A stretch of DNA of 63,962 bases, the filler included, from Cladosporium halotolerans (Eukaryota): NCBI RefSeq assembly GCF_011745625.1. It is 8 parts of 8 records of this genome, joined end to end, with 100 filler letters (N's around TTAATTAATTAA, not from the genome) between each part and the next. Parts side by side here need not be neighbours in the genome. Positions count along the whole stretch, not along the records: positions 17,136 to 25,392 come from NW_027191615.1; 7 more parts are not named here. One strand, 5' to 3'. The notes below the pieces were generated by a model, which saw nothing but the letters and a program-made list of their open reading frames with translations, was not told the origin of the DNA and did not search any database. Position numbers and translations under genes: made by a program. The first letter of the stretch is position 1, and every line of letters starts with the position of its first letter. Shown one piece after another: positions 1,007-57,773 of the stretch.

Positions 1007-4000
1007 TCAGACTCTAGCATCGTAAGGTGGAGGCTGGTCGTTCCCATAGGGAGTTGCATCTGGTGGTAGTTGCTCCTCTATCGTCGGTCGCGGCGGCCTT
1101 GTTTTTTCCGAGGGGACCGGGAAGGCAGGGCTCTTGTCCACTGGTGTCGCTTCTTCATGGATCAAGTTTCCTCGAGATGGTCGGGTCCAAAGGAAATGTC
1201 TCCCGTGTTTCGCCGAGTGCTGTTCAGGCGCCGGCATAACTTCTGTTGACGAAAGCTTTGGGAAAGAAACTTTACCCTCCACAACGTTGTCATTGGCGAC
1301 TGTTTGACGAGGCACTTGGCTAATAGGATAACCTCTGGGCTCCAGCCGGTCATGTTGTAGCAAATGGAGGCGGATTGAGGGCGCGACCTTTTCATCTTGC
1401 AGCGGAAGCACTAGATCCGGAAGCCGGAACACCCCTCGTTCGATCATTTGTGACCGTATTTCTGAGGTCATGCAGATCTTGCGTCGAGATCCAGTAGATG
1501 CGGAAGGAATGGAAAAAAACGGCTCGAAGTCGGGACAACATCGATCCTCCAGAACCTTCCCCAGGCACTTTGCATAAGCGCTGTGATCTTCGTACCGACA
1601 AGAAATCCGTCCGACGGTGTGTCTGCTTCCCGCGGCATCTGTGGTCGTAGCTTGCTCATTGTAGTAGAATAACAATGCCACGAGATGATGCGCCAAACTT
1701 CGTACGGCGGTAGATCTGTGCGACTCTTGCAGTTTTTCGCCGACCAATGCCGAGATTCTCCGGATCTGACTCTCGCGGTCTTGAGCAGGAGGCGCTTCTT
1801 TCCCCAGATCGACGTTGAAACGGACCCGTCTCCCACGCAGGATTTCGGATGTTTCCGGAGCCGGGGCGGAAGCAAACTCTTGCCACATGCGTTCAGCTTC
1901 GAGCACGTCGTTGTCGCTCCTGAGCCACCATTTTGCCATCCTTGATGCGTCAGAGATACCGTTCCGGAGCCACTGTGCATTACTTGGCGCATCGCTGGTC
2001 TTCGGGCCCTTCAACAGCTCCGCCAGGACCGCTGCGCGGTTCTGACCAGTTCCGAGGGACAATATCAGATCGGGCTCGGCTATGTCGGGCCATATCTTGC
2101 GTGCTTCGGCGCGTGCGGCAGCGGCGAGCTTCACGCGGCCGGCCCTGATTCCAATGAACTGTCTGCCAGCGGCTGCAGGTAATGTTCCGAAGTATCGAGC
2201 ATCTGCCATCGTTGCGTAGACGGCTTCAAAGGTCTTCATCTCACCGGCGGGATCGTTTGGACGATCGTACTCGTAATCGCTCGCACTGTCAGTATTGTGC
2301 TGAGTCTCGAAAGCATCATCCGGCTCCGGCCTACGGTAATTGCTGAGCAGCGTCGTTCTGTGGTTCGTCAAGTTGATGGATGTGACAGCAACTCTAACGT
2401 CAGGTCGAAATTGGTCCATTTCTCCGAAAAAGTCTTTTTTTTCACCGAATTCGCTTTTGAGGGCTTCGCGTATGCCCGACCTCCCGTATTGCGGACGGGA
2501 GCGTAGGGCATGGGATACGCGATGGATCAGCGCGACGCCTGGTGTTTTCACACTGTAGGATTGTCTGCATATGGTACCGAAGGCCTCTTGGCACTGGTCC
2601 AAGGACGTCTTCTCTTTCGCAAGGGCCACCGCGATGAGACCGCCAGTTCCAGACCCGACCATCAAGTCGAAAAGAGCCTGCACTGGGAGATGCCCGTCCA
2701 ACGCTTGCTCAATTGCGCGTAGAATCTCCAACTGCACGACTCCGCGGATGCCTCCCCCGTCCAGGACGAGCACGCGCACCCCTGCCCCTCGAGGCTTATA
2801 CTTGACCACTTTTGGTCGCGTCCATCGGGTCGCATGCTGGTGGAGGGGACACCACGAGATCAGCAAGGTAGACTGTGTGAGGTCGCCGCACGCGCGCGCG
2901 CATCTGTCGCACAACGCGTGACCGCAAGGAAGAGAATGCTGTGGGACATCCATCAGGCAACAAAAGCAAGTGGAGTGACTGCGGATCCACGTCGCCGGTC
3001 CCACAAAGCGGTAGAAACTGTCCAATCGATCGACGTGTATGGCGAAAGCGATCGGCTCTTCCGCGTACACTGTGCGCTTCGACGTCATCGCGGCAAGATC
3101 CAGCTCTTTGGAGAACATTCGGTGTAGATCATTGATGGCGGTCTCTAGTTGTTTCATGCACTTCTGAGCAAATCCGGTTTCGAGAGCGGACTCGTATTGC
3201 CCAGCTGCTATGATTCCACTTTCATCCTGGTGGCCTTTCGTTTGGTGCCGAACTTTCACCAAGACGCATCTTCGCCGTCCGTCCGTACTGACAAACGAGC
3301 AAGGATAGTGTAACTGGAGGTATTCGGTCAGGGCAAACTCGAAATGGTGGGCGTAACTTTTGAACAACTCGTGCAGCTGTCCTTTGCGGAAGCGGGCGCA
3401 GTCCAGCAGAACGCAAGAGGCCAGCACAACATTGAGTTTGCCAAAAACCGACTCGACTCTCGCAGCATCTCGTGACGGCATCCGAGCGCTCAGGCTCTCG
3501 CATAGCTGTAGAATGTGCCCACCAAAATCTCGAGGTATCGGGTTCCGCCGCAGTGACACCTGCATGAAATTGAAAGGCACCTCGATGTGAGTGGTGAAAT
3601 GGTCGAAGCCGCTCTGGATGTACAGATTCAGCTCATCGGCATCGAGCAGCAGGCGAGCGCGTCGCTTCGCCTCGTGTGATGCCCGGCAATTCGTGACGAT
3701 GGCTGCGTGCAGCTTGTCCACTTGCTGACTGATCAACATGTATTGCGGTGCGGCGGGAATGCGTACGACTTTGAAGGAGGCATAGTAGCACAGTATGAGG
3801 TCGTTGACGGAGTTGATCTCTCTTCCGAGACGACGCCAGTGATCAGCGAGCTGGCGGAATCGGGCCACTCCCTCGATGCGATCGAAGGCGTTGCTGACAG
3901 ACGACAGGAGGCTCTGCGTGGCGTGGTGGCTATCCCACTGGGCAGGTTCGATGCCAGGATGGCTACCGTTGAGCACTACTATGCAGTGCGGCAGGGTTGG

Positions 4001-5130
4001 TTGGTTTATCGACTTCTCCAATGCGGCTGCCCCCCAATCCAAAAGTTTCGTGAGCGCAGCTGAGCCAAAAGTCTTTGGGTTCCGCAGCACGAACGCGACG
4101 CAGTCAGAGAAACTGTACAAAAGCCGCGGGTATAGCACCGTCACGGCGTACTCTCGTCGACGATGCTCTTCTGTGTCTGCCCACCTGACCCGCCGCGTGT
4201 TGACCCAAGCTCTTGTTGCGGCATTTTGGCTTTCTTGAGAGCCAAGCTGAGACTGTGAGCCCAGAGGAGATCGTTCGCCCCCTTCGAAGCCTTCGCAATC
4301 GGCGTACAAGATGGGCAACGGGTCTGTGTGAGTTGCTGGATCAGCGTAAAGGTGGACGTCGCCTGAGGTGGCGAGGCCATCGTTGACAGCGCTACCAACG
4401 ACGGGGGACGGAAATCCGACGCTGGAGCCGAGTGTCTTTTCGCTCTTTTCGCTCTTTTCGCTCTTTTCGCTCTTTTCGCTCTTGTCGCTCTTGTCGCTCT
4501 TGTCGCTCTTGTCGCTCTTTTCGCTCTTGTCGCTCTTGTCGCTCTTGTCGCTCTTGTCGCTCTTGATGCCAATGTCATTATTGCAGCCGTGTCCGCGGTG
4601 AACCAACATCTTGATCAAAGTGGACTTCCCGGCGTTGGTGACGCCGACGAAAGAGACAAGCTGTGGATAACGAGTCTTCATGCTAGTCGAGCGCGCAATA
4701 TCGGAGACGAGGGTAAGATAACGTCCGTAATCGTCGAACAGCACTTGGTCTTCTTTGTCACGAGTCACGCCGAACCATTTGGTCCATTCGTCTTCTTGGT
4801 GAGATTTTTGAACCACCAAAGGATCCGTTGATGGGTTTAGTATACCTCTCAATCGCCGGATGACGCCCAGATCTACCTTCTCGTGCGGTAAACCTTCGGG
4901 CCCTCTCTTCTTGGGTCTATGCGGACCTTGAAGAGCCCAGCAGTGACTGATGAAGCATGTCAGCATTTGACTTCCTCGCGGCGTTTCCTCATCTCGTACC
5001 TGCAGTATGTGCTGTCGCAACGAACACAGTACGACAACTCCGTCGCTTGGATGCCGCCATCGATGCATCTTCCATCCTCGCAAACCTCTTCGATATCTTT
5101 CTCGGCATCGTCGGTAGACGTTGCCGTCAT
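1007..5130 (-). CDS. Multidomain patatin-like protein (N-terminal Zn finger, P-loop NTPase, Cys-rich RING-like region, patatin domain with degenerate catalytic motifs)
   Basis: Walker A GVTNAGKST; YADCEG; CFCC..CGHALCDRC; patatin LVLDGGGIRG and FDLMVGSGTGG. Likely ATG at 5130 (MTATSTDD). An intron at 4999-4947 (GTACG...CTGAC...CAG) joins CVRCDSTYC to SHCW in frame. Confidence 0.85.
4436..4564 (-). repeat. Coding 9-bp tandem repeat, 14 copies (SDK/SEK)
   Basis: Repeated CTT[G/T]TCGCT units; translation SDKx4-SEK-SDKx4-SEKx5. Confidence 0.97.
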
Positions 5131-17231: not shown

Positions 17232-18549
17232 CCTTGGCACCAAACCCTGTTAACAATCGGCATTGTCGCATTCTGCGCATTTTTTAACATCTTCCTGGCG
17301 CCACGACTACCACTCATGGAAGCAATTGTTCTCGTTCTCCACGTTGCGGGCGTATTCGTCATTATCATACCTCTCTGGGTGACTGCACCTCGTGGCAATG
17401 CTCACGACACGATCTTGAATTTCACAAACGGCGGCGGGTGGCAATCCGATGGTCTTTCGTACGCAATTGGCATAGTGCCAATGATTGGAATGCTTATTGT
17501 AAGCTAATGAGCAGAGCGCTCTGACGGCCTTCCGATAGGGTTGATTCGTTTATGGACACCCACGCTAACGCTATTAGGGATATGATTGCTCCATCCATAT
17601 GTCCGAAGAGACTAACGATGCATCGCGAACGATTCCACTTGTCGTGTTGTGGGCGGTAGCTGCCAATGCCCTAATGCTGATTGTTGTTGGAATCACATTC
17701 ATCTTCTGTCTTGGAGACCTTGACAGTGTCCTTAACTCCCCTACCGGACAACCTATGATTCAGGTATTCTATAATGCGACCCAGAGCCAGGCTGGAACGG
17801 GGGTAATGGTTGCCGTGGTCATTGTCGTTTTTGTGTCGGCTTGCGTTGGGCAGGTAGCTACGGCTTCGCGTCAGATGTGGTCGTTTGCGCGCGACCAAGG
17901 TAAGTCACAGCCGCATACTCCACAAGAATTGTGTTTTGCAAAAACTCTGCTTACCAAACATTTCCAAAGGATTTCCAGGTTCCAAATTTCTCGAGAAGGT
18001 GCCCGCGGTATGGAATATTCCCATCAACGCCATTCTACTGTCTGCTATCATCACCTCCTTGTTGTCTTTGATCAATCTCGGTCTGTATCATCGCCCAAGC
18101 CTGAGGAACGAAAAACATACTGAATGGATGAATCAGGATCCCAAACCGCCTTCAACGCTTTCAATTCACTCGGAACTGTCTCGATCCTATTCTCTTACAC
18201 TATCACGATAGCGTGCTTGATTTGGCGTCGACTCTTTGGTGCGCCGCTGCCACCGAGAAGATGGTCGCTTGGACGAGTTGGATTACCGGTCAATGTGGTT
18301 GCCTTGTGTCTAACTACGCCCATGCTATTCTTCTACGTTTGGCCAGTGTACTTCCCTGTCACTATGGAGAACATGTAAGATACTTTCTCAAATCACGACT
18401 TCTTGAGGAGAGCTGACATCAAAACGTGCAGGAATTGGTCTAGCACAATGCTTGGAGGTGTTGCTATCCTTGCATATATCTACTATGTTATTCAAGGACG
18501 ACACTCGTACGATGGTCCCGTGGTGCTAGTTAAGCGCGATGCGTTGTAA
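17232..18549 (+). CDS. Amino-acid/choline/GABA permease (APC family), 3' part, cut at its 5' side by the TE
   Basis: PWHQTLL, FTNGGGW, GYDCSIHMSEE, ASRQMWSFARD, NIPINAI, NWSS, ending GPVVLVKRDAL*; several introns. Confidence 0.88.
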
Positions 18550-19179
18550 TGCATCGCATTTTGGAACCTCCTACTTTCAACCCCATTCTTTTCTCATTCA
18601 TGCTATTGAAACCCTTCAATCGGATATTGACGTCATGGGACTGATTGATGCTAGTTTCCAGTTCGCGCCCGAAAGCCTGCGGACCTTCGAGTGCACTTGC
18701 AAACGGATTATGTCAACGAAAGATATTCGAATTGATGCCGAAGTGCCTTTTCGCCGGAAATCGCTTGTCCGGATATCTCTCTCAGAGACAGTGGCTACCG
18801 ATGCTTGATTTCGAAACATTGATGGAGAGATACCGCCTTTCGAAAGGTCGGCGGAATTTGTCGAAATAGACGAGATGCTCGCATTATTGACGTTCAACGT
18901 ATTGACTAGTCCCAGCTGTCACCTTTGCAGGTCCTCGACATTTACAGAGCACGCTAAGAAAGTCGCGGCTTCCACATTGGGTCGCGTGATTGGTGAGATG
19001 CATGACTCACGCGAAGCTTCGTCATGTGCCGCCTTTGTACAACACGCCCTGTCGGATGGTCGACGTCGCGAAGGCGAAGCGTTCCTAAGGTAGGCTACAA
19101 GAATCGTCCAGAGGTGATCGCAAAACTTGAAGACATTTGGCGCATCGTCTATCGTGTGGACGACATCAAATCTTGCGCC

Positions 19180-19961
19180 ATGTCCGCCCTCAGACTTTCA
19201 GGCTGCGTGATCTTACTAAATGGTTTCCCTGGCGTCGGCAAGCTGACCATCGCGCGGTGCCTACAGTCGGCTCTTGTCAATGTCAGGTCCCGACTCATTG
19301 ACAATCATCTCATGATTGATCCCGCCGAAGCAATCTATCCTGGCCGAGGAGCTCCGTATAGAGTATTTCGGGACCGGATGAGACAAGCCATTTTCGATGA
19401 TCTCAAGGCCCTTCCCGAGGATGATACCGTTCTGATCATGACATGCTCACTTGGAGCAAACTTTGAGGATGCCGCAGTGTTTGCGGAGTATCTCGAGGTG
19501 GGTTGACCAGTGGATTATACGTTAAACCCATGCCGTTCTGCGGTCCGACTGACTATGTGTTCTTCACTAGGTTGCTAGATCTCGAAACATGCCCTGCTAT
19601 ACGTTCACAATGTATTGCGTAAGAGAGCAACACAAACTGCGACTTCAGTCCCCTGATAGAATTCTGGGTGAAAGGAGCAAGCTAGTGCAGCCAGGCAAGT
19701 CAATCATGCCCGAAAACAGTTATAAAACACGTGAAGAGAGCGTTCCTAACCAACGGATCCACAATAGCTGTTCTTGACGATTTGCTATCGAACAACGAGT
19801 TGCTGAATCCGTTCGATCGATCTCTCGGATACGAGTTCGAAATCGGCATGCACTTAAAGCACAGCTCGTTAGACGTAATTGAGCTCACGCCCGAAGAAAG
19901 CGCCGACCGCATCCTCAATATTATCATACAGGACTTGGAGGGCGCGGGCGGCAAGGACTAG
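19180..19961 (+). CDS. P-loop small-molecule kinase-like protein (chloramphenicol phosphotransferase/AAA_33-like), about 3 exons
   Basis: ILLNGFPGVGKLTIA, LIDNHLMIDP, RLQSPDR, LDVIELTPEESA. Confidence 0.7.
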
Positions 19962-20876: not shown

Positions 20877-23720
20877 ATGTTTTTTGGATCTCACGCAGCT
20901 CTCGTCGTGGTATGCATTGTCGCGTTCTTCGATGTTGTGGCACAGGCCAACGATGATCTGAGATGGGTGCCCTTTGACCGCCAACAATTCAACGGAAGTG
21001 TTGCTCTGGACACAAATGCTGACGTTCAGCTGTACTGGAAAATTGGGGAAGAGTACTCGACGTTTGGCATCGCTTCTCGATCAAGCGGCTACCTGGCTGT
21101 AGGGTTCAGTCAAACTGGTGCCATGACTGGTGCCGACATTGCTGTTGGGTATACAGACCAAGACGGCGTATTCAGCTTCGAGAACCGCCATGCATCCGGT
21201 TTCGTGACTCCAGAGGTCTCGCAGGATCAAGAAGGCAACATGCGTTTCAAAGAAGGATATCAGGCCGATGGAGTCACTGCCTTCATTTTCGAGAAAAAGA
21301 ACAAAGCCAGCTGCCTTGAAACACAAGCCGACGTTGCCGTAACCTCGTGGCAATGGATGATCTACGCTTTCTCGCAGGACAACAGCTTTTCCCAGCATGG
21401 TCCTGGCGAGAATGGCAAGAAGTATGTCAGACTCGGCAACGGGAAGGTGATATCCACACTCGACACTCCAGCCATGCCCGGAACCAGGAACTGGACAATC
21501 ACGCAGCCTGAGGTAATGATCCCTACCGCAGAGACAACCTATTGTTATAGTCTTCACAAGGTGCCTGTGGCCAACAAGAATTTCCTGCTCGCCGAGAGAC
21601 CAACCCAGTCCAGTCCGCTTTTGCATCACTTAGTTGTCTATGCATGCTATGGAATGCCTCAAGGCCTTAAGGAAATGGAAGGCAAACAGCCCAACTGCGA
21701 ATGGGAAACTTTCTCCAACCCTTGCAGCGGATTCGTGACAGAGTGGGCTCCTGGCATGTCTGGCCGTACATTCGAACCTGGATACGGTAAGCCCTTCGGC
21801 TCCGAGCTCTATGAATATGTGATGTTTGAGACCCACTACAACAACCCCGAAGGTCTGGAGGGAGAGAAAGATGCTGCGAGTTACACATTCCTGTACAACG
21901 ACATTCCTGTGGAAACAGAAATCGGTACGCTAACCCTGGGCGACCTTCAAGTGACCGGTTGGTTCCTTGAGCCTGGAAAAGAGCTTGTCCCTCATTCGAC
22001 GGTCTGCACACCAGAATGCACTCGAAAGTGGCCCTCGGAGGGGATCACTGCCGTCTCTGTGTTTCATCACATGCACTACAGAGGCCGCAATACCAAGGTC
22101 CAAATCATTCGTAATGGCACTGAAATCAGCTCGTTATCCTCACTTCGCGACTTTGAGTACGGGTATCAATTTTCTAAGAGCTTGGATGAGATCAAACTTC
22201 TCCCGGGGGATAAATTCATCACAACTTGCGAATACGATACCTCAAAAGATACCGAACCAGTGCCGGGTGGCCTGTCGAGCCAGGAAGAAATGTGTTTCGC
22301 TTGGGTTGACTATTACCCAGCAAACGATGTTCTCGCCTGTACGCAATTCGATCTAGGGAGCGCCGCCGAGAATCAGATCAATGGCACAGTGGCGGTGTGT
22401 ATGGAGTCCACTGCAGAGGCTCCGGATGTTGTTCCATCGGCCTATTTGAATTCCACTTTCGAATCGCTCCCCGTTACCGGTGACAACTGCCCAGCGGCAA
22501 GCTCCCCGGGATCGAACCCGCCTGGGAGCTCTGATGAAGCAGCTGTCCTGAGCACATGTCCGGAAACTGAAGTCTGTTTCTCGATCCACGTACCACGGGA
22601 ATCTGCAAGCTCCGGGTCCGGAGACATCTATCTTCAGTTATCGGCGCCAACGACGTACTCCTGGGTTGCCCTTGCGCAAGGCACGACGATGACAAATGCC
22701 AACATGTTCCTCATGTATAGCTCAGCCGATGGCACAAACGTGACCCTGTCACCGCGGAATGCACCAGAACACTCCATGCCCACACGCAATGATGCTGCGA
22801 ACGTCTCCCTTTTGGAAGGCTCCGGGATCTCCGACGGCAGGATGACAGCCAATTTCAGGTGCAGCAATTGCCATGAGTGGAGCTCAGGTGGCATGAGCTT
22901 TGCCAGTGACAGTAGCGACTGGCTGTATGCATACCGCCAGGGACCATCGATTGTCTCCGACGACACGAATGCTGCAATAAGCATTCATGATAGACACGGA
23001 GTTTTCCAGTGGAATCTTTCCCGAGCCACTGGAGGCTCGAAGTTGAACCCTTTCACCGGTGCGGCAGGGAACACGACATCAAACTCCCCCGCGAGTGTGT
23101 CAGGATGGGAAAGGCTGTCAGCAACCGTCCGACGGCGCTTCGTGCAAGCTCATGGGGCTCTGGCAGCTGTTGCCTTCGTCGCAATATTTCCTACCGGTGC
23201 TTTGCTTGTACGTCTAGCCAGCTTCAGTGGGTTCGCTTGGGCTCATGGTGCTTTGCAGATCTTTGGCTACACCGTCTTCGTCGCTGCAGCTGGTCTGGGA
23301 ATTTTCATGGCGAGCTCAAGTGACAGGTTACAAGAACCTCACGCGATAATCGGCATGGTTCTTCTCGCAGTATTCTTCTTCATGCCATTTGTTGGTGTTG
23401 TCCATCACAAGGTGTTCGGGAAAGTACACAAGCGGACTTGGTGGTCTTACTCTCACATCTTCGTTGGGCGGTTTGGTGTTCTCCTCGGCATGATCAATGG
23501 TGGCCTTGGTCTTCAACTAGCTGATGCCGGCAGATCTCCGAAGATTGCATACGGTGTTCTGGGAGGACTGATGGGAGTCGTGTACTGCGGCGTTGTCTTT
23601 TTCGGCGAAATCAGACGTGGCAAAACGCTTCCACGAAATGTCGCGACCGTCTCGAAGCCAAAGCAGTTGGGTCCAGATGATAGTGATAGAGCTGCATCTC
23701 CGGAGCGTCGCCTGCCATGA
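20877..23720 (+). CDS. DOMON + copper type II monooxygenase (DBH/MOXD1-like) + CDH-type cytochrome DOMON + cytochrome b561 fusion
   Basis: Signal peptide; GAMTGADI; Cu ligands LLHHLVV, ETHYNNP, FHHMHYRG, EEMC; second DOMON GTTMTNA, CSNC, ISIHDRHG; b561 histidines in AHGAL, AHGALQ, PHAIIG, SHIFVGR; single 947-aa ORF. Confidence 0.9.
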   Translation: MFFGSHAALVVVCIVAFFDVVAQANDDLRWVPFDRQQFNGSVALDTNADVQLYWKIGEEYSTFGIASRSSGYLAVGFSQTGAMTGADIAVGYTDQDGVFSFENRHASGFVTPEVSQDQEGNMRFKEGYQADGVTAFIFEKKNKASCLETQADVAVTSWQWMIYAFSQDNSFSQHGPGENGKKYVRLGNGKVISTLDTPAMPGTRNWTITQPEVMIPTAETTYCYSLHKVPVANKNFLLAERPTQSSPLLHHLVVYACYGMPQGLKEMEGKQPNCEWETFSNPCSGFVTEWAPGMSGRTFEPGYGKPFGSELYEYVMFETHYNNPEGLEGEKDAASYTFLYNDIPVETEIGTLTLGDLQVTGWFLEPGKELVPHSTVCTPECTRKWPSEGITAVSVFHHMHYRGRNTKVQIIRNGTEISSLSSLRDFEYGYQFSKSLDEIKLLPGDKFITTCEYDTSKDTEPVPGGLSSQEEMCFAWVDYYPANDVLACTQFDLGSAAENQINGTVAVCMESTAEAPDVVPSAYLNSTFESLPVTGDNCPAASSPGSNPPGSSDEAAVLSTCPETEVCFSIHVPRESASSGSGDIYLQLSAPTTYSWVALAQGTTMTNANMFLMYSSADGTNVTLSPRNAPEHSMPTRNDAANVSLLEGSGISDGRMTANFRCSNCHEWSSGGMSFASDSSDWLYAYRQGPSIVSDDTNAAISIHDRHGVFQWNLSRATGGSKLNPFTGAAGNTTSNSPASVSGWERLSATVRRRFVQAHGALAAVAFVAIFPTGALLVRLASFSGFAWAHGALQIFGYTVFVAAAGLGIFMASSSDRLQEPHAIIGMVLLAVFFFMPFVGVVHHKVFGKVHKRTWWSYSHIFVGRFGVLLGMINGGLGLQLADAGRSPKIAYGVLGGLMGVVYCGVVFFGEIRRGKTLPRNVATVSKPKQLGPDDSDRAASPERRLP

Positions 23721-24098
23721 TAGTATAGCAGCATGAAAATCTGGTATTATTATGCGATGAGAGGTAACTCTGCTTTGGTGACTAAGCAGGCTTTCCCGCC
23801 GCCCCACGTTCCGTTCGGTCCGTCGCCGCATCGCTTCGCACCCCGTCAGTCCGGTGTTTCGTCCAGGCACGCCGCTACGCAATCCCCCGCATGGAGGCGT
23901 GGGCGTGTGACGTGCGGCTTTCATACCACGCGGACTTTTGCATTTGCAAGCGTCAAATAGCTCCCGTCTACTAAACCCTCCTAGGCTCTCTGTTCCATCA
24001 GTACTCTCCAGCTGGAGTGCTAAGGTAGGCATCCTACGCCAGTGCTGTCCTTGTCTCTCTCGACTCTTCCGTACGTCTTCTCTCCCTCACTGCCCTGC

Positions 24099-25196
24099 AT
24101 GGTCAACATGCACTTTATCATCACTTTCGCACTGGTGGCACAGGCCCTGGCCATAAGCAGCGACCAGCAGCAGCAGCCCTTGGTCAAGAATCCCAGAAAG
24201 TATTCCGTCCAGACGCCTCCCTTGGATACAGACTGGACATATCAGGTGGGAACAAATCCGTGGCCCCAGTATCCCAGACCAAAGCTGGTCCGGTCTCAAT
24301 GGAAAAGTTTGAATGGCATTTGGACGTACTCGAGCGCATCGAGTCGCGGCGCTGTTAGCGATCCGCCGTTCAATACTACACTGTCGCAAGAGGTTTTGGT
24401 ACCATTCTGCTTGGAGAGTGGCTTATCTGGCATACAAGGCTCAAATACGATCTACTCCTGGTACAAAACCGCCTTCACAGTGCCATCCTCGTGGAAGAGC
24501 GAGCGAGTGCTGCTGAACTTTGGAGCCGTTGACTACGAGGCGACAGTGTTCGTCAACGGCCACAATGCTACGTTTCATCGCGGTGGCTATTCTGCTTTCA
24601 GCGTCGACGTGACCGACTATCTTAACGGCCAGCAGAATGAACTGTACGTGCCCGCCATCCCCTTGAGCAGCAATGACTGACTCCTGTAGCATCGTTTTCG
24701 CCTTTGATCCCACAGACGGCGATGACTTCGTTATTCCAGTGGGCAAGCAAACCCTGAACCCTTCGCATATTTTCTACCGGCCATGTAGCGGCATCTGGCA
24801 GACTGTCTGGATCGAGCCTGCTCCCAAAAACCACATCAGCGACCTGAACATCAACGGTGATGCTGGCGGCCAAGTCAACCTGACAGTCATTGCCTCTCAG
24901 AGCAAGAGCTCGAGCGTGGACATTACCATTCGCGAAAAGGCAAGCATGCAGCAAAACATCCGAATTGTGCAAATGAAGCTGAGAATGTCTAGGGAAGCAA
25001 AACTCTTGTGGCAAAGCATAGCGGCTTTGTGGGATCCCCGATCACGTTCACCGTGCAGTCGGCCAATCTTTGGTCTCCAGACTCCCCGACCCTCTACGAT
25101 GTCTCTATCAAGATGGGAGCGGACAACATAACCACCTACACCGGCTTCAGAACGGTCAGCAAGGATAGGGCCAATGGCGTGCAAAGAGTCTTTTTG
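24099..25196 (+). CDS. Secreted glycoside hydrolase family 2, N-terminal part (incomplete)
   Basis: Signal peptide; PWPQYPRP, WKSLNGIW, VPFCLESGLSGI, LNFGAVDYEATVFVNG, SGIWQTVWIE, LWSPDSPTLY, YTGFRT. Confidence 0.88.
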
Positions 25197-25590: not shown

Positions 25591-27216
25591 ATGTTAGCTG
25601 CGTCGGTGCTGATATTGGGAGGTATTGTGGGGTAATTTACCAAGCCAGTTAGCCGCTGTCGCAACAGATGCTTGTTTCGCTCGCGTACGAAGTGGACTGA
25701 AAGATTATCTTAGCACCGACTCATGTTTTGGCGATACGCAGGAATATTCTCACAAAGTCTCTCCTATTACGACCCAGGCGAAGGGTCCCCACGTCATTGC
25801 GAAGGAAGCGATGAACATGCACGCAGCCACAATCATGACAATTCCAGAACTCTCAAATTCAGTTGGTGGCCTAGTGACAGCCACGCAGGCGAAGATCAGT
25901 AACCATACCGACTGCCAGATGGCGCCTACGGTTAGTGGTATGCGGCGACCGAACCTCTCCACAATATACAAGCCCGGGAAGGTAGTCGCAACGTTTACCG
26001 CACCGAGGATGAGTTGGACTAGAATGGGATCTTCAATGCCGGCCGACTCAAAGATTGTCGCGCCATACTAGAGCAGCAATTAACGATACGACGATACGAA
26101 GTAAGAATGCCGAAAGACTTACGTAGAAGAAATAATTCACACCCGTCCACTGCTGTAGGAAGTGGATAGCCATGCCTAAGAACGTGCGGTAAGCAACACG
26201 AGGCTTGTTCCCGCTCCCTATGAAACATTCCAACCAGGAACCGGTGCCAGCAGTCTTTTGCTCCTGGATGTTGTCATGCATCTCTTTCCAGTCGTCTTCA
26301 ATGAGCTGGTTATGCGGATCGTCTTTCAAGCCGCGAAGTCGAGCCATCGACACGCGGGCTTCGTCCCAGCGATCTCTGCCGGCTAGCCATCGAGGAGACT
26401 CTGGCGCGAAGAGGACGCCGATACCAAGTGGGAGTGAAAAGGCAATACCGAGCCCGATGACAATTCTCCAGGAAGCTGACGATTCTTCAATTTCCCGAAC
26501 GCCGTAGTTGATGAGATTGGAGACCAGGATGCCGATAGTGATCATGAGTTGGTAGGAGGCCACTACAGCACCCCTAATCTCGCGAGGACAGCATTCTGAT
26601 TGAAACATCGGTACACCTTGGCCAGATCAGCGGCTGCAATCTAACCAAAACGCATTGTCGTCTTGCAACATACCAACACTGAGGTTTCCGACACCAATAC
26701 CTGCGATGAAACGCCCCATCATCATATGTACCCAAGAGTCCATCGCGGTGATCTGGATGGTGTTCCCGATGATAAAGATGGCCACACCGAAGGACAAGCT
26801 CCGTCGACGACCCCACCAATCAACTGTATAGGCACCAGAAAGAGCACCAATGAGTGATCCAATACTCATGAGTGAGACAATGAGCGATTGCACAATAGAG
26901 GCGAAGCCAGGATCCCCGGCCGTGCCCTGCCCGAAGCGTAGACGAAAATCTCTGAAGAGCAGCATGCCACTAATTTGTCCCTATCATAATGTCAAAAGTT
27001 GCGTCGTCACAGTGGGGCTGTTCGAGCATGTCACAACAGAACGCACCGTGTCATAGCCAAATAGAAATCCGCCTATCGAGGTAACAACCCCAAGCACAAT
27101 GGCCTCGATGCCACAGTCGGCGCCATTGACGCGGACGGATCTGCAAAAGTGTCAGCCTAAACAGCCCTAATTAATATCCCGTCAATCAGAGAAACGCACA
27201 CTTTCCCAAAAACCAT
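25591..27216 (-). CDS. Sugar porter family hexose transporter, multi-exon, 3' end cut by the TE and gap
   Basis: GGFLFGYDTG, DWWGRR, GRFIAGIGVG, PMFQSEC, PESPRWL, QQWTGVNYFFY, ERFGRR, WGPFAWVVIGE. Confidence 0.9.
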
Positions 27217-30005: not shown

Positions 30006-31350
30006 ATGCCACAAGACGAGATTGGAGAGAGACTGGGTGTAAAGAGATCAACGGTGAACAGCCTGATTCAGGCCGCAAGAGCGCGCAGTTCGACCTTAAA
30101 TCTAGCCGATCTGCAAGCCTCGATCACGGTTCAACCACGAAGTTGCAGACCAAGACGAGCCACTCATGGCGATTATATATCCTTGACTGTTCGCAGAGCT
30201 CCCCAAGAACACCAATACCATGCCATGGACGACGCAGCCAACCTTTATCTCAGGGAGCGCCAGGTACCGGGCAAAATAGATCGTGATATCCAGCCATTCG
30301 GCACACAATCAATTTACAACATCTTGCAGGACTATGAACAGTGCAGTGCGGATCCAGACGAACAAAATGCCCTTACACGTCACCGCGCATATAGACGTAA
30401 CGAACTCAGTGCTACCAATATTCCACAACGTCAGGCATATCTATTCGAGGTTGAACAGCTAGATCAAGCAGAGAAATCATCATCTGCCGCGACGAGAAGG
30501 CCTATCACTTCGGCGGTGCTTCCAATCAACATGTCACCCTACCCATCAACACCAGCTCGTACCAAAGCTGCGCCCCAACACGGTGCAAGCTCGAGTACTG
30601 GGTTGCTGCCTTTGGCGATTGCTGCGCAGTTAAGAGGCCTTCGACTGCCTGGCAGCTCAAAGATAAGACCTCGGAGGAATTGCAGAGGCAGCTGGATGAA
30701 TGCAATGCACAGGCGAAACAGATAACCCAAGAGCAACGTGCCGATGCAGAATTTCACGGCACGCCCGATCATCAGTATCTCACTTTGATGAATGCGCAGG
30801 TGTCCGACACCTTTCGAATGCGTGCCACTGCTGATGACAGTGTTGGCCCCAAACACTGGACTCCAGAGCGCCTCTTCGCTTACCAAAATCACAATCCCAA
30901 AGAGGAAACTTAGAAGCTCAAATTCGTGTAGTATGCGTTTGAAATGTAAAGGAAGCTTTTTCTCCCTAAGTATCGTAAGATATGCAGACAAATTCCAAGC
31001 AGGAGAGTGGTGATACAGGAAGGCAACCATGGACATCGTCTCAAGGCTCGCCGGCTTCTACACACTGAGATCCTCCAGCAAGACATTGTGTTTGTGACCC
31101 ATCCTGACACTTCACCGGATCTAGCACCCCTTGAAGGCCGTCAAGGTGAGTACGAAAGTAAGCTTGCAAGCCGTACTTACGAAGAGATAGATGCACAGGC
31201 TTCCACTTTACAAAGGTCAGAGGATCTCCTTAAGCAAACCTGCTAAAGAAAAGATTTCAATCAGACAGGGAAGAGCAAGGTCTCTAGAGCAGCCTACAAA
31301 GAGCTAGCAAAGAGGTGCAAGATATAGGAGGGGGCAACCACTTCACGGAC
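30006..31350 (+). pseudogene. Degenerate Tc1/mariner-type transposase
   Basis: HTH QDEIGERLGVKRSTV..PRSCRPR; C-terminal IQEGNHGH..HPDTSPDLAPLE resembles Tc1 QDNAPxH..SPDLNPIE; several frameshifts. Confidence 0.65.
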
Positions 31351-44012: not shown

Positions 44013-45863
44013 GTGATCTCCAACGCCTCGCTGGCGGGAATGTTATCCCCCAGTAAAGATGGCGGAGGTACGCCCGCAGGTGACGTTTCAGGGTCTGAAG
44101 CGTCCGGGGAAAGCTTCCAGCCAATCGGGAGCCTCGCTAACAGAAAGCTGTTCACGCCGGGCTTCAATCGTGAACGATCTCAGAGCCAAGAATACCAGCA
44201 GGTCGCCAGAACGTGCCCGGCAAGTCCCAAAAAGCGGAAGGTAGACTCGAATATCGCTGTGAGCATTGATGAAGATGCGCTATGGCAGGAAATCGAGAAA
44301 GCCGTGGCGAGGGCGTTGCAGGCCTTTGTGGGGCCCGACTTCGCCAAGGGGTCATTTGGAGATGTACAGTCTCTACGAAGCGAGATCAGAGCGATCAGGG
44401 AAAGTGTCGACAGGACGCAAATGCAAATCATGGAGGCCGTGAGTGATACGGTGGCCAAAATGCAAGCGGAAGCGGACCGGCGAGTGGCCAGCATCCTTGA
44501 AAGACTTACGCAGATACCTGACGGCGCACCCACACAGGACAAAGGCAGAGACACCGTCCCGTCTGATGCTGACGAGCGGCCAGATCGTGTTGCGCCGGGC
44601 CCTGTTGCGCAAAACAGACAAAAGCCAGCCCGAGCAACGCAGCGGACCTGGGCTAACGTTGTTGGAACGGGAACGCCAACGGCCGTTGGATGGACCACAG
44701 TCACCAACGGCAAGAGAAAGTTACAGAAACATCCGTTGGAACAGAGGCGTATCCTGTTCGCTAGGAACGTCCAGACTCACACTTGCGACCCACGAGACCT
44801 CATGTTCGAAGTCAACAAAGCCCTTGCGCACGCGAGAGCCCACGTGACGGTGAGATTGATCAAAATGAGATACACGGAAAAAGGCAATTTGACTGGGCTG
44901 TTGAATGAGACCGCTCGCGTGGAAGATTTGCTCGAGTACGCGCCGGCCGTGATGGCCGCTGTGCACAAGCTTGACCCTGAAGTGATGTACATGGGCAAGA
45001 CGGAAAAGTGGCGCAAGCTGCGTGTGCATGGCGTTGCGCTGGACCGCTACATGCGCGATGGTGGACTGGGTTTAGTGAGGGAAGAAATAGAGCTCATGAC
45101 GGGTGAACAGCTCCCGTACGCGCCCCGGTGGATCAAGGAAGACACGCTCAGCGACCGATTCCACAGAGGCACCGTCAAGCGGTCGACGCTGGTCTTGACC
45201 GTGAAAAGCAAGCAGGCCGCAGACGCCATTTTGGCAAAAGGCCTCTCCTTTGGGGGCAGACGGCACGAAGCAGAGAGATTCTGGGAAAGAGGAGAGGGAG
45301 GTATATGCTTGCGCTGTTGTGGGCGAGATCACTTCGGCAAGTGTACAGAACAGTCGAAGTGCTTCGTCTGTGCTGGCGAGCATGAGGGTAGTAAGCACCA
45401 GTGCACTGCACAGGATTGCGGCAAGAAATCAGAACCGTGCGAACACCACCCAGCGAAGTGCGCTAATTGCGGTGGACAGCATGTGGCAGCGTCGCGAAAG
45501 TGCCCCGAGCGGTGGTCAAAGACAGCCAGGCGTGCCAAGGACACTACCGAGTTGCGCAGCAGCCCTCCTATACTGGGGGCCAGCCAGAATCAGTGCCGAA
45601 GAGCGTCCCGAGAAACGTCGTCCAAGGACGACTCGACACCGACCAACCCTGAACGAATCACACCTACCAACCCCGCAGCAACCACTCCTTCTGACATGGG
45701 GAAAGACGCCGCAGAAGATTTGTACAACGACACGTTCCCTGAGTTCTACCAAGAAATGTTCGGGACCAGGACTGCGCGCGGGGCGAACTCATCGCCTATA
45801 CTAGTGCAGAGCTCAAGCGATCCGACCCCAATGTCCGTCGATGATGATAGTGCTTCAACATAA
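44013..45863 (+). CDS. LINE ORF1 (gag-like nucleic-acid-binding protein with Zn knuckles)
   Basis: Coiled coil, TWANV, CLRCCGRDHFGKC, CFVCAGEH, CANCGGQH..CP; first ATG at 44040. Confidence 0.9.
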   Translation: MISNASLAGMLSPSKDGGGTPAGDVSGSEASGESFQPIGSLANRKLFTPGFNRERSQSQEYQQVARTCPASPKKRKVDSNIAVSIDEDALWQEIEKAVARALQAFVGPDFAKGSFGDVQSLRSEIRAIRESVDRTQMQIMEAVSDTVAKMQAEADRRVASILERLTQIPDGAPTQDKGRDTVPSDADERPDRVAPGPVAQNRQKPARATQRTWANVVGTGTPTAVGWTTVTNGKRKLQKHPLEQRRILFARNVQTHTCDPRDLMFEVNKALAHARAHVTVRLIKMRYTEKGNLTGLLNETARVEDLLEYAPAVMAAVHKLDPEVMYMGKTEKWRKLRVHGVALDRYMRDGGLGLVREEIELMTGEQLPYAPRWIKEDTLSDRFHRGTVKRSTLVLTVKSKQAADAILAKGLSFGGRRHEAERFWERGEGGICLRCCGRDHFGKCTEQSKCFVCAGEHEGSKHQCTAQDCGKKSEPCEHHPAKCANCGGQHVAASRKCPERWSKTARRAKDTTELRSSPPILGASQNQCRRASRETSSKDDSTPTNPERITPTNPAATTPSDMGKDAAEDLYNDTFPEFYQEMFGTRTARGANSSPILVQSSSDPTPMSVDDDSAST

Positions 45864-57501: not shown

Positions 57502-57773
57502 TTTGGACAATGAAACGACTGTCTACGCGATCGGTGCCCCAAAACTTGGTTAGGCACGCAGGCAAACGACAGGAGAACAGCAAGAGATGGGTGATCAAGG
57601 AAGTAACGTCCATCCACCTGTGGCGGGAATCTTCTTCTGATATTCGCTCTGTATCCGTTATCCACGCCACATGTCATTGACAACTCATCTCTTGCTCTTC
57701 TCCTGTCGTTTGCCTATAGGCTTGACCGCGTGCCGAAGCACCGACTGAGTAGACAGCCGTTCCATCGTCCAAA
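57502..57773. repeat. Imperfect inverted repeat with 97-bp arms and a 78-bp spacer
   Basis: 57502-57598 aligns without gaps to the reverse complement of 57677-57773, including an exact AGGCAAACGACAGGAGAA block. Confidence 0.85.

What the first reader, a model, noticed from the sequence alone, without database searches (positions are those of the whole stretch)
20877..23720. Copper monooxygenase fused to its own putative electron-supply chain (DOMON-DBH-DOMON-cytochrome b561)
Seen: one uninterrupted 947-aa ORF, so this is not a gene-model merge. All CuH (HH, H) and CuM (HxH, M) ligands are present, both DOMON domains keep a Met/His pair, and the b561 domain keeps four histidines. Known: animal DBH and PHM need ascorbate that is recycled by a separate cytochrome b561, and fungal CDH-type DOMON-b561 proteins normally stand alone. 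Inference: a self-contained trans-membrane wire from a cytosolic reductant to an extracellular or lumenal Cu hydroxylase with an unknown substrate.
Basis: partly seen in the sequence, partly recalled or inferred. Interest (0 to 1): 0.75.

Follow-up and report, generated by a model that had tools for sequence, protein, structure and literature searches.

The report
Copper hydroxylase fused to haem wire
A fungal gene joins a dopamine-beta-hydroxylase-like copper enzyme to a membrane-spanning haem protein of the kind that feeds electrons to such enzymes in animals, so one protein may carry its own power line across the membrane.

Summary
Window 20877-23720 (+) is one uninterrupted 947-aa ORF. It encodes a signal peptide, a DOMON domain, both halves of a DBH/PHM-type copper monooxygenase, a cellobiose-dehydrogenase-type cytochrome domain and five transmembrane helices.

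The TM domain gets no direct Pfam b561 hit. It is still b561-like by profile (4o6y, E 1.1e-4), by fold and through its relatives (13 of 47 pass PF03188).

All Cu ligands, both Met/His pairs and H759, H790 and H822 are kept in 51 of 51 full-length orthologs; H860 in 50 of 51.

New findings:
- The N-terminal DOMON Met/His pair aligns with the haem ligands of the protein's CDH-type domain. Human DBH lacks both.
- The closest DBH-only relatives carry GPI-anchor-like tails (32 of 37).
- Stand-alone CDH-cyt-b561 proteins are common.
- A protist transcript pair has the same module order built from a different DOMON type.

The trans-membrane wire remains inference. No coordinates were available and the complex tool never ran. 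I found no paper describing this fusion; database entries call it hypothetical. I rate it a new variant of known kinds, with moderate to high interest.

The parts
20877..23720 (+). Whole gene: single-exon ORF, 947 aa plus stop
   Evidence: orthologs cover 91-100%
20877..20948 (+). Signal peptide, about residues 1-24
   Evidence: Hydrophobic N-terminus. pLDDT below 50 for residues 1-24.
20964..21461 (+). N-terminal DOMON domain (about residues 30-195) with the haem-type pair M83/H174
   Evidence: Pfam PF03351 E 2.7e-20. M83/H174 kept in 51 of 51. They align to M605/H704. Human DBH has Leu and Glu at these positions.
21492..21854 (+). CuH domain (residues 206-326); ligands H250, H251, H320
   Evidence: PF01082 E 1e-22; DBH alignment; 51 of 51
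21924..22346 (+). CuM domain (residues 350-490); ligands H398, H400, M472
   Evidence: PF03712 E 1.7e-25; Foldseek 4zel E 2e-31
22494..22529 (+). Flexible linker 1 (residues 540-551)
   Evidence: pLDDT below 50
22563..23030 (+). CDH-type cytochrome (AA8-like DOMON) domain, residues 563-718; ligands M605, H704
   Evidence: PF16010 E 6e-32. 1d7b alignment. Foldseek 1d7b TM 0.73, rmsd 2.0. 51 of 51.
23061..23099 (+). Flexible linker 2 (residues 729-741)
   Evidence: pLDDT below 50
23121..23624 (+). Five-helix b561-like TM domain (residues 749-916). H759 and H822 lie on the outer side, H790 and H860 on the cytosolic side. An extra H843/H844 pair sits at the cytosolic end of TM3.
   Evidence: Helices. 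Profile hit to 4o6y, E 1.1e-4. Fold matches 4o7g/4o6y/5zle. His conservation. No direct PF03188 hit.
23625..23717 (+). Basic cytosolic tail (residues 917-947)
   Evidence: 9 K/R in residues 911-947; low pLDDT

Best explanation
The gene encodes a type-I-oriented membrane protein of an ascomycete fungus. A DBH-like two-copper monooxygenase sits outside the cytosol and is covalently tethered to a CYBDOM-type electron conduit. That conduit is a CDH-type cytochrome domain on top of a five-helix cytochrome b561.

Proposed path: a cytosolic one-electron donor (in fungi probably D-erythroascorbate; recalled, not tested) reduces the cytosolic b561 haem (H790/H860). The electron crosses to the outer haem (H759/H822), then to the CDH-type haem (M605/H704), which is held on two short flexible linkers. 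From there it reaches CuH (H250/H251/H320), probably through a fourth haem in the N-terminal DOMON (M83/H174). CuM (H398/H400/M472) then activates O2 and hydroxylates a C-H bond of an unknown, probably non-peptide, substrate.

Shown: the ORF, the domains, ligand conservation, predicted topology and predicted folds.

Inferred: haem and Cu occupancy, every electron-transfer step, the donor, the substrate, and the location (cell surface or organelle lumen).
For: - Architecture and folds: (pLDDT 88.8).
- Ligands: H843 and H860 are kept in 50 of 51; every other ligand site checked is kept in 51 of 51 fused orthologs at 57-97% identity.
- Topology: signal peptide; all 9 N-glycosylation sequons lie in residues 39-732; the K/R-rich 843-856 loop and the C-tail are cytosolic. 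The histidines fall as outer and inner pairs on TM1-4, as a paper describes for CYBDOM proteins (PMC10691727, passage).
- Rosetta-stone logic: each half exists alone. There are about 400-aa CDH-cyt+TM proteins at 29-46% identity (alignment A2) and DOMON-DBH proteins of about 480-600 aa. The DBH-only close relatives end in GPI-like tails (32 of 37), so they sit at a membrane surface where such a partner could serve them.
- A protist transcript pair (P0235, P0250) shows DOMON, Cu monooxygenase, DUF568-type DOMON and PF03188 b561 in the same order.
- M83/H174 align with the CDH-type haem ligands. They are kept in 21 of 21 stand-alone DOMON-DBH representatives. Human DBH has Leu and Glu there, and its structure paper reports no haem axial ligands in that domain (PMC4846438, passage).
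Against: - No experiment and no measured geometry. The full-length model has pTM of only 0.62, with low-confidence linkers, so domain packing is uncertain.
- The window protein's TM region fails PF03188 directly, and the Foldseek E-value is only 0.02.
- DBH-only relatives do without a fused conduit, so the fusion could be an anchor swap.
- A stand-alone relative of the C-terminal half, M. oryzae Imp1, is reported as organelle-localised and linked to TOR-autophagy signalling, not to a copper enzyme (PMC6281275, passage).
- Only one 50%-identity cluster holds the full fungal architecture, so it is a narrow family.
- Taxa of the 21 stand-alone DOMON-DBH representatives are unknown.
Confidence: 0.55

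Rival explanations
1. Anchor swap with independent modules. The CDH-cyt-b561 half simply replaces the GPI anchor of the ancestral surface DBH-like enzyme. It keeps its own job, reducing external Fe(III), Cu(II) or another acceptor. The copper monooxygenase takes electrons from a soluble reductant.
For: - Close DBH-only relatives carry GPI-like tails (32 of 37; sequences read), so membrane tethering is the shared need.
- Stand-alone CDH-cyt-b561 proteins are abundant and clearly function without a DBH module.
- Plant CYBDOMs act as ferric and cupric reductases (PMC10784544, passage).
- The careful tree nests a 19-member short-form clade inside the fused forms, which would mean the two states interconvert.
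Against: - A DOMON-b561 unit was joined to a DBH module in two lineages, using different DOMON types. That is hard to explain if any anchor would do.
- The N-terminal DOMON itself has haem-type ligands, which suggests electron entry through protein-bound haem.
- The linkers are short, about 12-13 residues.
- AU tests do not reject a single fused clade (p 0.686 and 0.421), so the interconversion is not established.
Confidence: 0.25
2. The protein is mainly a trans-membrane metal reductase or copper-handling protein. The DBH-like module binds or receives Cu(I), or senses copper, and hydroxylates nothing.
For: - Database names such as 'iron reductase domain protein' are given to orthologs and relatives.
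- CYBDOM proteins reduce Fe(III) chelates and Cu(II) (PMC10784544, passage).
- No substrate can be named. The positions aligned with PHM residues I recall as peptide-binding (R240, N316, Y318) are not conserved.
Against: Both copper sites, including the CuM methionine, are intact in 51 of 51 orthologs. The catalytic core is DBH-like at E 4.4e-25 by sequence and 2e-31 by fold. Such conservation is expected for a working monooxygenase.
Confidence: 0.1
3. Annotation or assembly artefact, or a decaying pseudogene.
For: None found. Some database relatives are fragments or merges: P0049, P0054, P0062 and P0082.
Against: The frame is uninterrupted in raw DNA. A 97%-identical 947-aa protein is seen on 14 contigs (P0002). 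51 proteins of 844-1094 aa carry the same four domains, and ligands are strictly conserved in the 51-sequence alignment A1.
Confidence: 0.02

Closest known systems
Human dopamine beta-hydroxylase (PDB 4zel) and the DBH/TBH/MOXD1/PHM copper type II monooxygenase family
   Same: It has an N-terminal DOMON followed by CuH and CuM beta-sandwich domains. The ligand set is identical: HH...H and HxH...M. Sequence E is 5e-27 over residues 42-490, and Foldseek E is 2e-31 with TM 0.65.
   Different: - Identity is only about 20%.
- The match to DBH ends near residue 490, so no counterpart of DBH's C-terminal dimerisation domain was matched.
- The DOMON carries a Met/His pair where human DBH has Leu and Glu.
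- It is membrane-integral through a fused cytochrome.
- The positions aligned with PHM residues I recall as peptide-binding are F/S, F474 and W476.
CYBDOM proteins: DOMON plus cytochrome b561 (plant CRR/HYP1, animal FRRS1/SDR2, Drosophila CG8399)
   Same: An extracytosolic haem-type DOMON sits directly upstream of a b561 core whose four histidines lie on TM1-TM4, with an N-out orientation (PMC10691727, passage).
   Different: - The DOMON here is the fungal CDH-cyt (PF16010) type.
- There are five helices, not six.
- A complete copper monooxygenase lies upstream. Known CYBDOMs are ferric or cupric reductases (PMC10784544, PMC10784552, passages).
Stand-alone fungal CDH-cyt plus b561/ferric-reductase TM proteins, such as Magnaporthe oryzae Imp1 (MGG_08120)
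   Same: The two-module C-terminal half is the same. 47 representatives are 29-46% identical to the window protein in alignment A2 (34-48% over matched stretches for these 47), and all haem ligands are kept.
   Different: They have no copper enzyme attached. Imp1 is described as organelle-localised and acting in TOR-autophagy signalling (PMC6281275, passage). I did not compare Imp1's sequence directly.
Cellobiose dehydrogenase cytochrome domain (AA8; PDB 1d7b)
   Same: Same fold (TM 0.73, rmsd 2.0) and the same Met/His ligand positions. In CDH this is a mobile domain on a linker that hands electrons to a copper enzyme (LPMO); that role is recalled, not tested here.
   Different: Here the electron source would be a b561 rather than a flavin dehydrogenase, and the copper acceptor lies in the same polypeptide.
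Chromaffin-granule cytochrome b561 with DBH (animal two-protein system)
   Same: The logic is the same: a trans-membrane b561 supplies reducing power to a lumenal DBH (PMC10691727, passage).
   Different: In animals the link is indirect, through soluble ascorbate, and the two are separate proteins. Here the link would be hard-wired through protein-bound haems.

Membership tests
Copper type II ascorbate-dependent monooxygenase (DBH/PHM) | Both catalytic-core Pfam domains (PF01082, PF03712) score above their curated cut-offs | tested here: met
   81.2 bits against a cut-off of 30, and 89.8 bits against 23
Copper type II ascorbate-dependent monooxygenase (DBH/PHM) | CuH ligands (HH + H) and CuM ligands (HxH + M) | tested here: met
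   H250, H251, H320, H398, H400 and M472 align to the DBH and PHM motifs. Kept in 51 of 51.
Copper type II ascorbate-dependent monooxygenase (DBH/PHM) | Two-beta-sandwich catalytic fold | tested here: met
   Foldseek 4zel E 2e-31; PHM entries E about 1e-14, TM 0.61-0.81
Copper type II ascorbate-dependent monooxygenase (DBH/PHM) | Copper binding and reductant-dependent hydroxylation of a substrate | not testable with these tools
   Needs biochemistry
PHM subfamily (peptidylglycine hydroxylase) | Peptide-carboxylate binding residues (R240, N316, Y318; residue roles recalled from memory) | tested here: not met
   The aligned positions are S394-F396, F474 and W476
Haem-binding DOMON / CDH cytochrome domain (PF16010, AA8) | Pfam hit above cut-off, CDH-cyt fold, and Met + His axial ligands at the CDH positions | tested here: met
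   111.2 bits against a cut-off of 27. TM 0.73 to 1d7b. M605/H704 aligned and kept in 51 of 51. Haem binding itself is untested.
Haem-binding DOMON (N-terminal domain) | Met + His at the positions homologous to the CDH ligands | tested here: met
   hhalign probability 97.2%, M83 to M605 and H174 to H704. Kept in 51 of 51, 21 of 21 and 2 of 2. Pocket geometry and haem binding are not testable here.
Cytochrome b561 (PF03188) | Direct Pfam PF03188 match | tested here: not met
   No hit at E<=10 on residues 740-947. Of 47 stand-alone relatives, 13 pass the 23-bit cut-off, 10 more hit at E<=0.05 and 24 give no hit.
Cytochrome b561 (PF03188) | Homology to a solved b561 by profile and by fold | tested here: met
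   The A3 profile hits 4o6y at E 1.1e-4 over chain residues 40-208. The TM model's top four PDB matches are 4o7g/4o6y (probability 1.00, TM 0.63, E 0.02), and 5zle gives TM 0.64.
Cytochrome b561 (PF03188) | Four conserved His on four consecutive helices, forming an outer and an inner pair | tested here: met
   H759, H790, H822 and H860. Their membrane sides are inferred from topology, not from coordinates.
CYBDOM | An extracytosolic DOMON immediately N-terminal to a b561 whose core is TM1-TM4 | tested here: met
   definition from PMC10691727 (passage)

The most novel reading that the evidence does not exclude
Outside animals, the DOMON domain of DBH-like monooxygenases is a b-type cytochrome that serves as the physiological electron entry to CuH. 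This fused protein would then be a four-haem, two-copper, self-sufficient trans-membrane monooxygenase driven by a cytosolic reductant, needing no soluble ascorbate on the enzyme's side of the membrane. By extension, the GPI-anchored DBH-like proteins of other fungi would be served in trans by the widespread, so far function-less CDH-cyt-b561 (Imp1-type) membrane cytochromes. That would reveal a general fungal trans-membrane redox relay to copper enzymes, and the ancestral role of the DOMON domain that animal DBH has lost.
Probability: 0.35. Interest if true: 0.8.

Novelty: new variant of a known kind. Interest (0 to 1): 0.6.

Why it matters
- A natural fusion that wires a DBH-like enzyme to a b561 through haem-type DOMON domains gives a concrete hypothesis: DOMON is the electron entry. 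It also gives a single expressible protein on which to test that.
- It would assign a first biochemical client to the large family of fungal CDH-cyt-b561 membrane proteins.
- It would be a copper-enzyme counterpart to self-sufficient P450 fusions, which is of interest for biocatalysis.
- The substrate, and therefore the biological role in these fungi, is open.

Tried and rejected
- **Complex prediction** (DOMON-DBH 28-539, two haems, CDH-cyt 552-728). I handed it in eleven times. The queue was full, and one search reported the tool unavailable. Nothing was folded, so domain docking is untested.
- **Haem-to-Cu distances.** The script machine held only FASTA files and no model coordinates, so none were computed.
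- **Direct b561 evidence on the window sequence.** phmmer against PDB gave only a chance 44-aa hit. Pfam gave only DUF2427 at E 0.15.
- **Plant At5g54830 as a possible DBH-b561 fusion.** Rejected. Its relative P0251 shows DOMON, an At5g54830-like domain and b561, with no Cu monooxygenase.
- **Bacterial or archaeal relatives.** The A2 alignment was too divergent to search with. A1 gave 25 pattern matches and 0 confirmed. Only two peptide patterns were used, so absence is weakly shown.
- **Number of fusion events.** The quick and careful trees need 2 changes, and 0% of the 200 bootstrap trees show fused forms as one clade. AU tests do not reject one clade (p 0.686 and 0.421). This is unresolved. 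Rows P0062, P0082, P0086 and P0087 were dropped before tree building as fragments or merges.
- **Haem ligands of the protist second DOMON.** It is misaligned to CDH-cyt in A2, so I make no claim.
- **Literature.** Nine full-text searches returned listings and one more led to two papers. None describes a DBH-b561 fusion or a haem DOMON in a DBH-like enzyme.
- **Papers not held.** Preger 2009, Verelst & Asard 2003 and Asard 2013 could not be read. I did not look up Iyer/Aravind 2007 or Tsubaki 2005. Any of these may already draw this architecture.
- **Closed collections.** Gene neighbourhoods of orthologs were therefore not checked.
Full report
**1. Observation**

Window 20877-23720 (+) is one ATG-to-stop frame of 947 codons. 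The surrounding DNA is about 50% G+C and looks eukaryotic. Neighbouring reading frames are exon-sized fragments of an amino-acid permease, a GH2 glycosidase and a sugar transporter, and the window also holds a LINE-type retrotransposon and a PIF1 helicase. No tRNA genes were found.

Pfam places four domains above their curated cut-offs:
- DOMON, residues 48-153
- Cu2_monooxygen, residues 206-326
- Cu2_monoox_C, residues 350-490
- CDH-cyt, residues 563-718

The best solved relatives are human dopamine beta-hydroxylase 4zel (E 5e-27, residues 42-490), the cellobiose dehydrogenase cytochrome domain 1d7b (4.5e-7) and PHM (about 7e-7).

**2. Real gene, conserved as a fusion**

A word-indexed search returned 102 proteins. 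Of these, 52 carry all four Pfam domains:
- 51 are 844-1094 aa long, 57-97% identical and cover 91-100% of the query.
- One is a 724-aa fragment.

The named ones come from Chaetothyriales and Dothideomycetes: Knufia, Exophiala, Cyphellophora, Cladosporium, Zymoseptoria, Friedmanniomyces, Vermiconidia and others. They are called 'hypothetical', 'DOMON domain-containing' or 'iron reductase domain protein'.

I aligned the window protein with 50 of them (A1). P0049 and P0054 were left out as truncated. Conservation in this alignment:
- 51 of 51: M83, H174, H250, H251, H320, H398, H400, M472, M605, H704, H759, H790, H822, H844.
- 50 of 51: H843, H860.

An exhaustive phmmer run over 1.84 billion 50%-identity representatives gave 4950 hits at E<=1e-3. 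Of the 150 listed, only P0031 covers the full length in one stretch. The fungal fusion is therefore one tight family.

**3. The copper enzyme**

The alignments to DBH and PHM place H250/H251, H320, H398/H400 and M472 on the CuH and CuM ligand motifs. The full-length AlphaFold2 model (alignment A2 of 121 sequences) has mean pLDDT 88.8 and pTM 0.62. Confidence is low only in residues 1-24, 540-551, 729-741 and 923-947.

Foldseek matches:

| Target | E-value | TM-score |
|---|---|---|
| 4zel (human DBH) | 2e-31 | 0.65 |
| PHM entries | about 1e-14 | 0.61-0.81 |
| CDH/PDH cytochrome domains | 3e-10 to 5e-9 | 0.70-0.73 (rmsd 2.0-2.2) |

The core is closer to DBH (E 4.4e-25) than to PHM (2e-7). The positions aligned with PHM residues I recall as peptide-carboxylate binding (R240, N316, Y318) are S394-F396, F474 and W476. 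A peptidylglycine substrate is therefore unlikely. The substrate is unknown.

**4. The membrane domain is b561-like, shown indirectly**

The direct tests failed. There is no PF03188 hit even at E<=10 (best DUF2427, E 0.15), and phmmer against PDB found nothing meaningful.

The indirect evidence agrees:
- A profile of the C-terminal half plus 47 stand-alone relatives (A3) hits Arabidopsis cytochrome b561 4o6y at E 1.1e-4 over chain residues 40-208.
- Of those 47 relatives, 13 pass the PF03188 cut-off, 10 more hit at E<=0.05 and 24 do not hit.
- A TM-only model (pLDDT 95.1, pTM 0.88) has b561 structures as its top four PDB matches (4o7g/4o6y, probability 1.00, TM 0.62-0.64). Human Dcytb 5zle gives TM 0.64. 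The Foldseek E-values are only 0.02-0.5.
- The Atlas gives a b561 lead at 0.87.

H759, H790, H822 and H860 lie on TM1-TM4. They are kept in the 47 stand-alone relatives (H822 in 46 of 47) and in the 2 protist proteins that have a direct PF03188 hit. H843/H844 are fungal extras.

The topology is N-out/C-in:
- There is a signal peptide.
- All 9 N-glycosylation sequons lie in residues 39-732.
- The 843-856 loop holds 4 K/R, and residues 911-947 hold 9 K/R.

This puts H759/H822 at the outer side and H790/H860 at the cytosolic side. That is the arrangement a paper describes for CYBDOM proteins, whose core is TM1-TM4 (PMC10691727, passage).

**5.

(a) *The N-terminal DOMON looks like a cytochrome.* Profile-profile alignment of this domain against the protein's own CDH-type domain gives probability 97.2% and E 1.1e-10. 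M83 falls on M605 and H174 on H704. The pair is kept in 51 of 51 fused orthologs, in 21 of 21 stand-alone DOMON-DBH representatives and in 2 of 2 protist proteins. Human DBH has Leu and Glu at these columns. Its structure paper states that no typical haem axial ligands are present and that the pocket is too narrow (PMC4846438, passage). A 2025 review still treats the DOMON role as speculative (PMC12164859, passage).

(b) *The nearest DBH-only relatives are complete proteins.* In one search they are 58-71% identical over the first 52-59% of the query. By my own crude hydropathy and composition rule, 32 of 37 examined end in a small-residue stretch followed by a hydrophobic tail, like a GPI-anchor signal. 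The five misses are one fused-type fragment, one merged model, two truncations and one unclear case.

(c) *Stand-alone CDH-cyt+TM proteins of about 400 aa are common in Pezizomycotina*. One species, Pseudovirgaria hyperparasitica, is named for both a short DBH-like protein (P0085) and a stand-alone cytochrome (P0127). Zymoseptoria and Vermiconidia have both fused and stand-alone forms. One member of this architecture, M. oryzae Imp1, has been studied genetically and is reported as organelle-localised (PMC6281275, passage).

(d) *Two proteins from a eukaryote transcriptome share the module order.* P0235 and P0250 (23% identical in alignment A2; P0235 29% over matched stretches) show DOMON, Cu2_monooxygen, Cu2_monoox_C, DUF568-type DOMON and PF03188 b561 in the same order. 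The different DOMON type points to an independent, or at least very old, fusion.

(e) *Other long relatives are tandem DOMON-DBH duplications without b561*.

**6. Evolution**

I built trees of the DBH region from 89 rows, after dropping four fragment or merged rows. With distant outgroups, short forms sit at the base. A clade of 19 short forms nests inside the fused forms, so two changes are needed. In the careful tree, 0% of 200 bootstrap trees have the fused forms as one clade. AU tests nevertheless do not reject a single fused clade (p 0.686 against the quick tree; p 0.421 with lnL 5.57 lower against the careful tree). The outgroup branches are long. I leave the number of fusion and loss events open.

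**7. Mechanism**

The proposed path runs from a cytosolic reductant to the inner b561 haem, then the outer b561 haem, then the CDH-type haem on 12-13-residue linkers. From there it goes to the N-terminal DOMON haem, then CuH, then CuM, and on to O2 and substrate. I put this at 0.55.

The domains, ligands, topology and folds are shown. Cofactor occupancy, every transfer step, the donor (probably D-erythroascorbate in fungi, from recall), the substrate and the compartment are inferred.

The main rival (0.25) is an anchor swap in which the two halves work independently. The GPI-type relatives speak for it. The second-lineage fusion and the haem-type N-terminal DOMON speak against it. A metal-reductase or copper-handling role for the whole protein (0.1) and an artefact (0.02) are less likely.

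**8. Novelty**

All modules are known. The fused family already sits in sequence databases under uninformative names. I found no paper describing a DBH-b561 fusion or a haem-type DOMON in a DBH-like enzyme. This rests on ten answered full-text searches and on passages read in seven papers.

Several older bioinformatic papers could not be read: Preger 2009, Verelst & Asard 2003 and Asard 2013 were not held, and I did not look up Iyer/Aravind 2007 or Tsubaki 2005. Any of them may depict the architecture. I did not consult InterPro architecture tables; there was no tool for that.

I rate it a new variant of known kinds, meaning a CYBDOM with a copper monooxygenase passenger, or equally a DBH-like enzyme with a built-in electron supply. 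Interest is 0.6.

**9. Not done**

- Domain docking: complex prediction never ran (queue full ten times, then unavailable).
- Haem-to-Cu distances: no coordinates were available to scripts.
- The bacterial/archaeal scan found nothing (25 pattern matches, 0 confirmed), but it used only two peptide patterns.

Noticed in passing
window 44040-48441 (+): This looks like a LINE-type non-LTR retrotransposon. A 607-aa ORF with no Pfam hit is followed by an 866-aa ORF with endonuclease (Exo_endo_phos) and reverse transcriptase (RVT_1) domains. The region has strong A/G strand skew.
   Followed up: no
window 59786-61825 (+): A 679-aa ORF encodes a PIF1-like helicase with its 2B domain, in a G- and A-skewed stretch. 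It could belong to a Helitron-like or other mobile element. A 100-nt inverted repeat, 76% complementary, lies upstream at 57502-57601 and 57674-57773.
   Followed up: no
window 24042-24680 (+) and 26048-26608 (-): Exon-sized fragments of a GH2 glycosidase (sugar-binding domain) and a sugar transporter lie directly downstream of the gene. An amino-acid permease fragment (17599-18123) and an AAA_18 fragment (19024-19506) lie upstream. No functional link to the fusion gene is evident.
   Followed up: no
window 23403-23408 (residues H843/H844): An extra His-His pair sits at the cytosolic end of TM3. H844 is kept in 51 of 51 fused and 47 of 47 stand-alone fungal relatives, but the two protist b561 fusions lack it (K/R and P). 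It may be part of the reductant site or a metal site; unexplained.
   Followed up: partly
proteins P0107, P0114, P0122, P0124, P0133, P0137, P0143, P0145, P0150, P0224 (representative library): These are 1000-1340-aa relatives. Each has two matched stretches of both Cu-monooxygenase domains, and nine of the ten have two of DOMON (P0224 has one). None has a b561. Some of their DOMON domains also score as CDH-cyt. Taxa are unknown.
   Followed up: partly
proteins P0235 and P0250 (eukaryote transcriptome records): These show the same module order as the window gene, but with a DUF568 (AIR12-type) DOMON and a b561 that hits Pfam directly. They are 68% identical to each other, and no other close relative was returned.
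   Followed up: partly
window 30006-30725 (+): A 239-aa ORF gives a weak Sigma70_r4-type helix-turn-helix hit (E 3e-5, below the cut-off). It may be the HTH of a transposase remnant.
   Followed up: no
window 1007-5068 (-): A 1353-aa uninterrupted ORF carries a patatin-like phospholipase domain at residues 767-955. The rest is unassigned.
   Followed up: no
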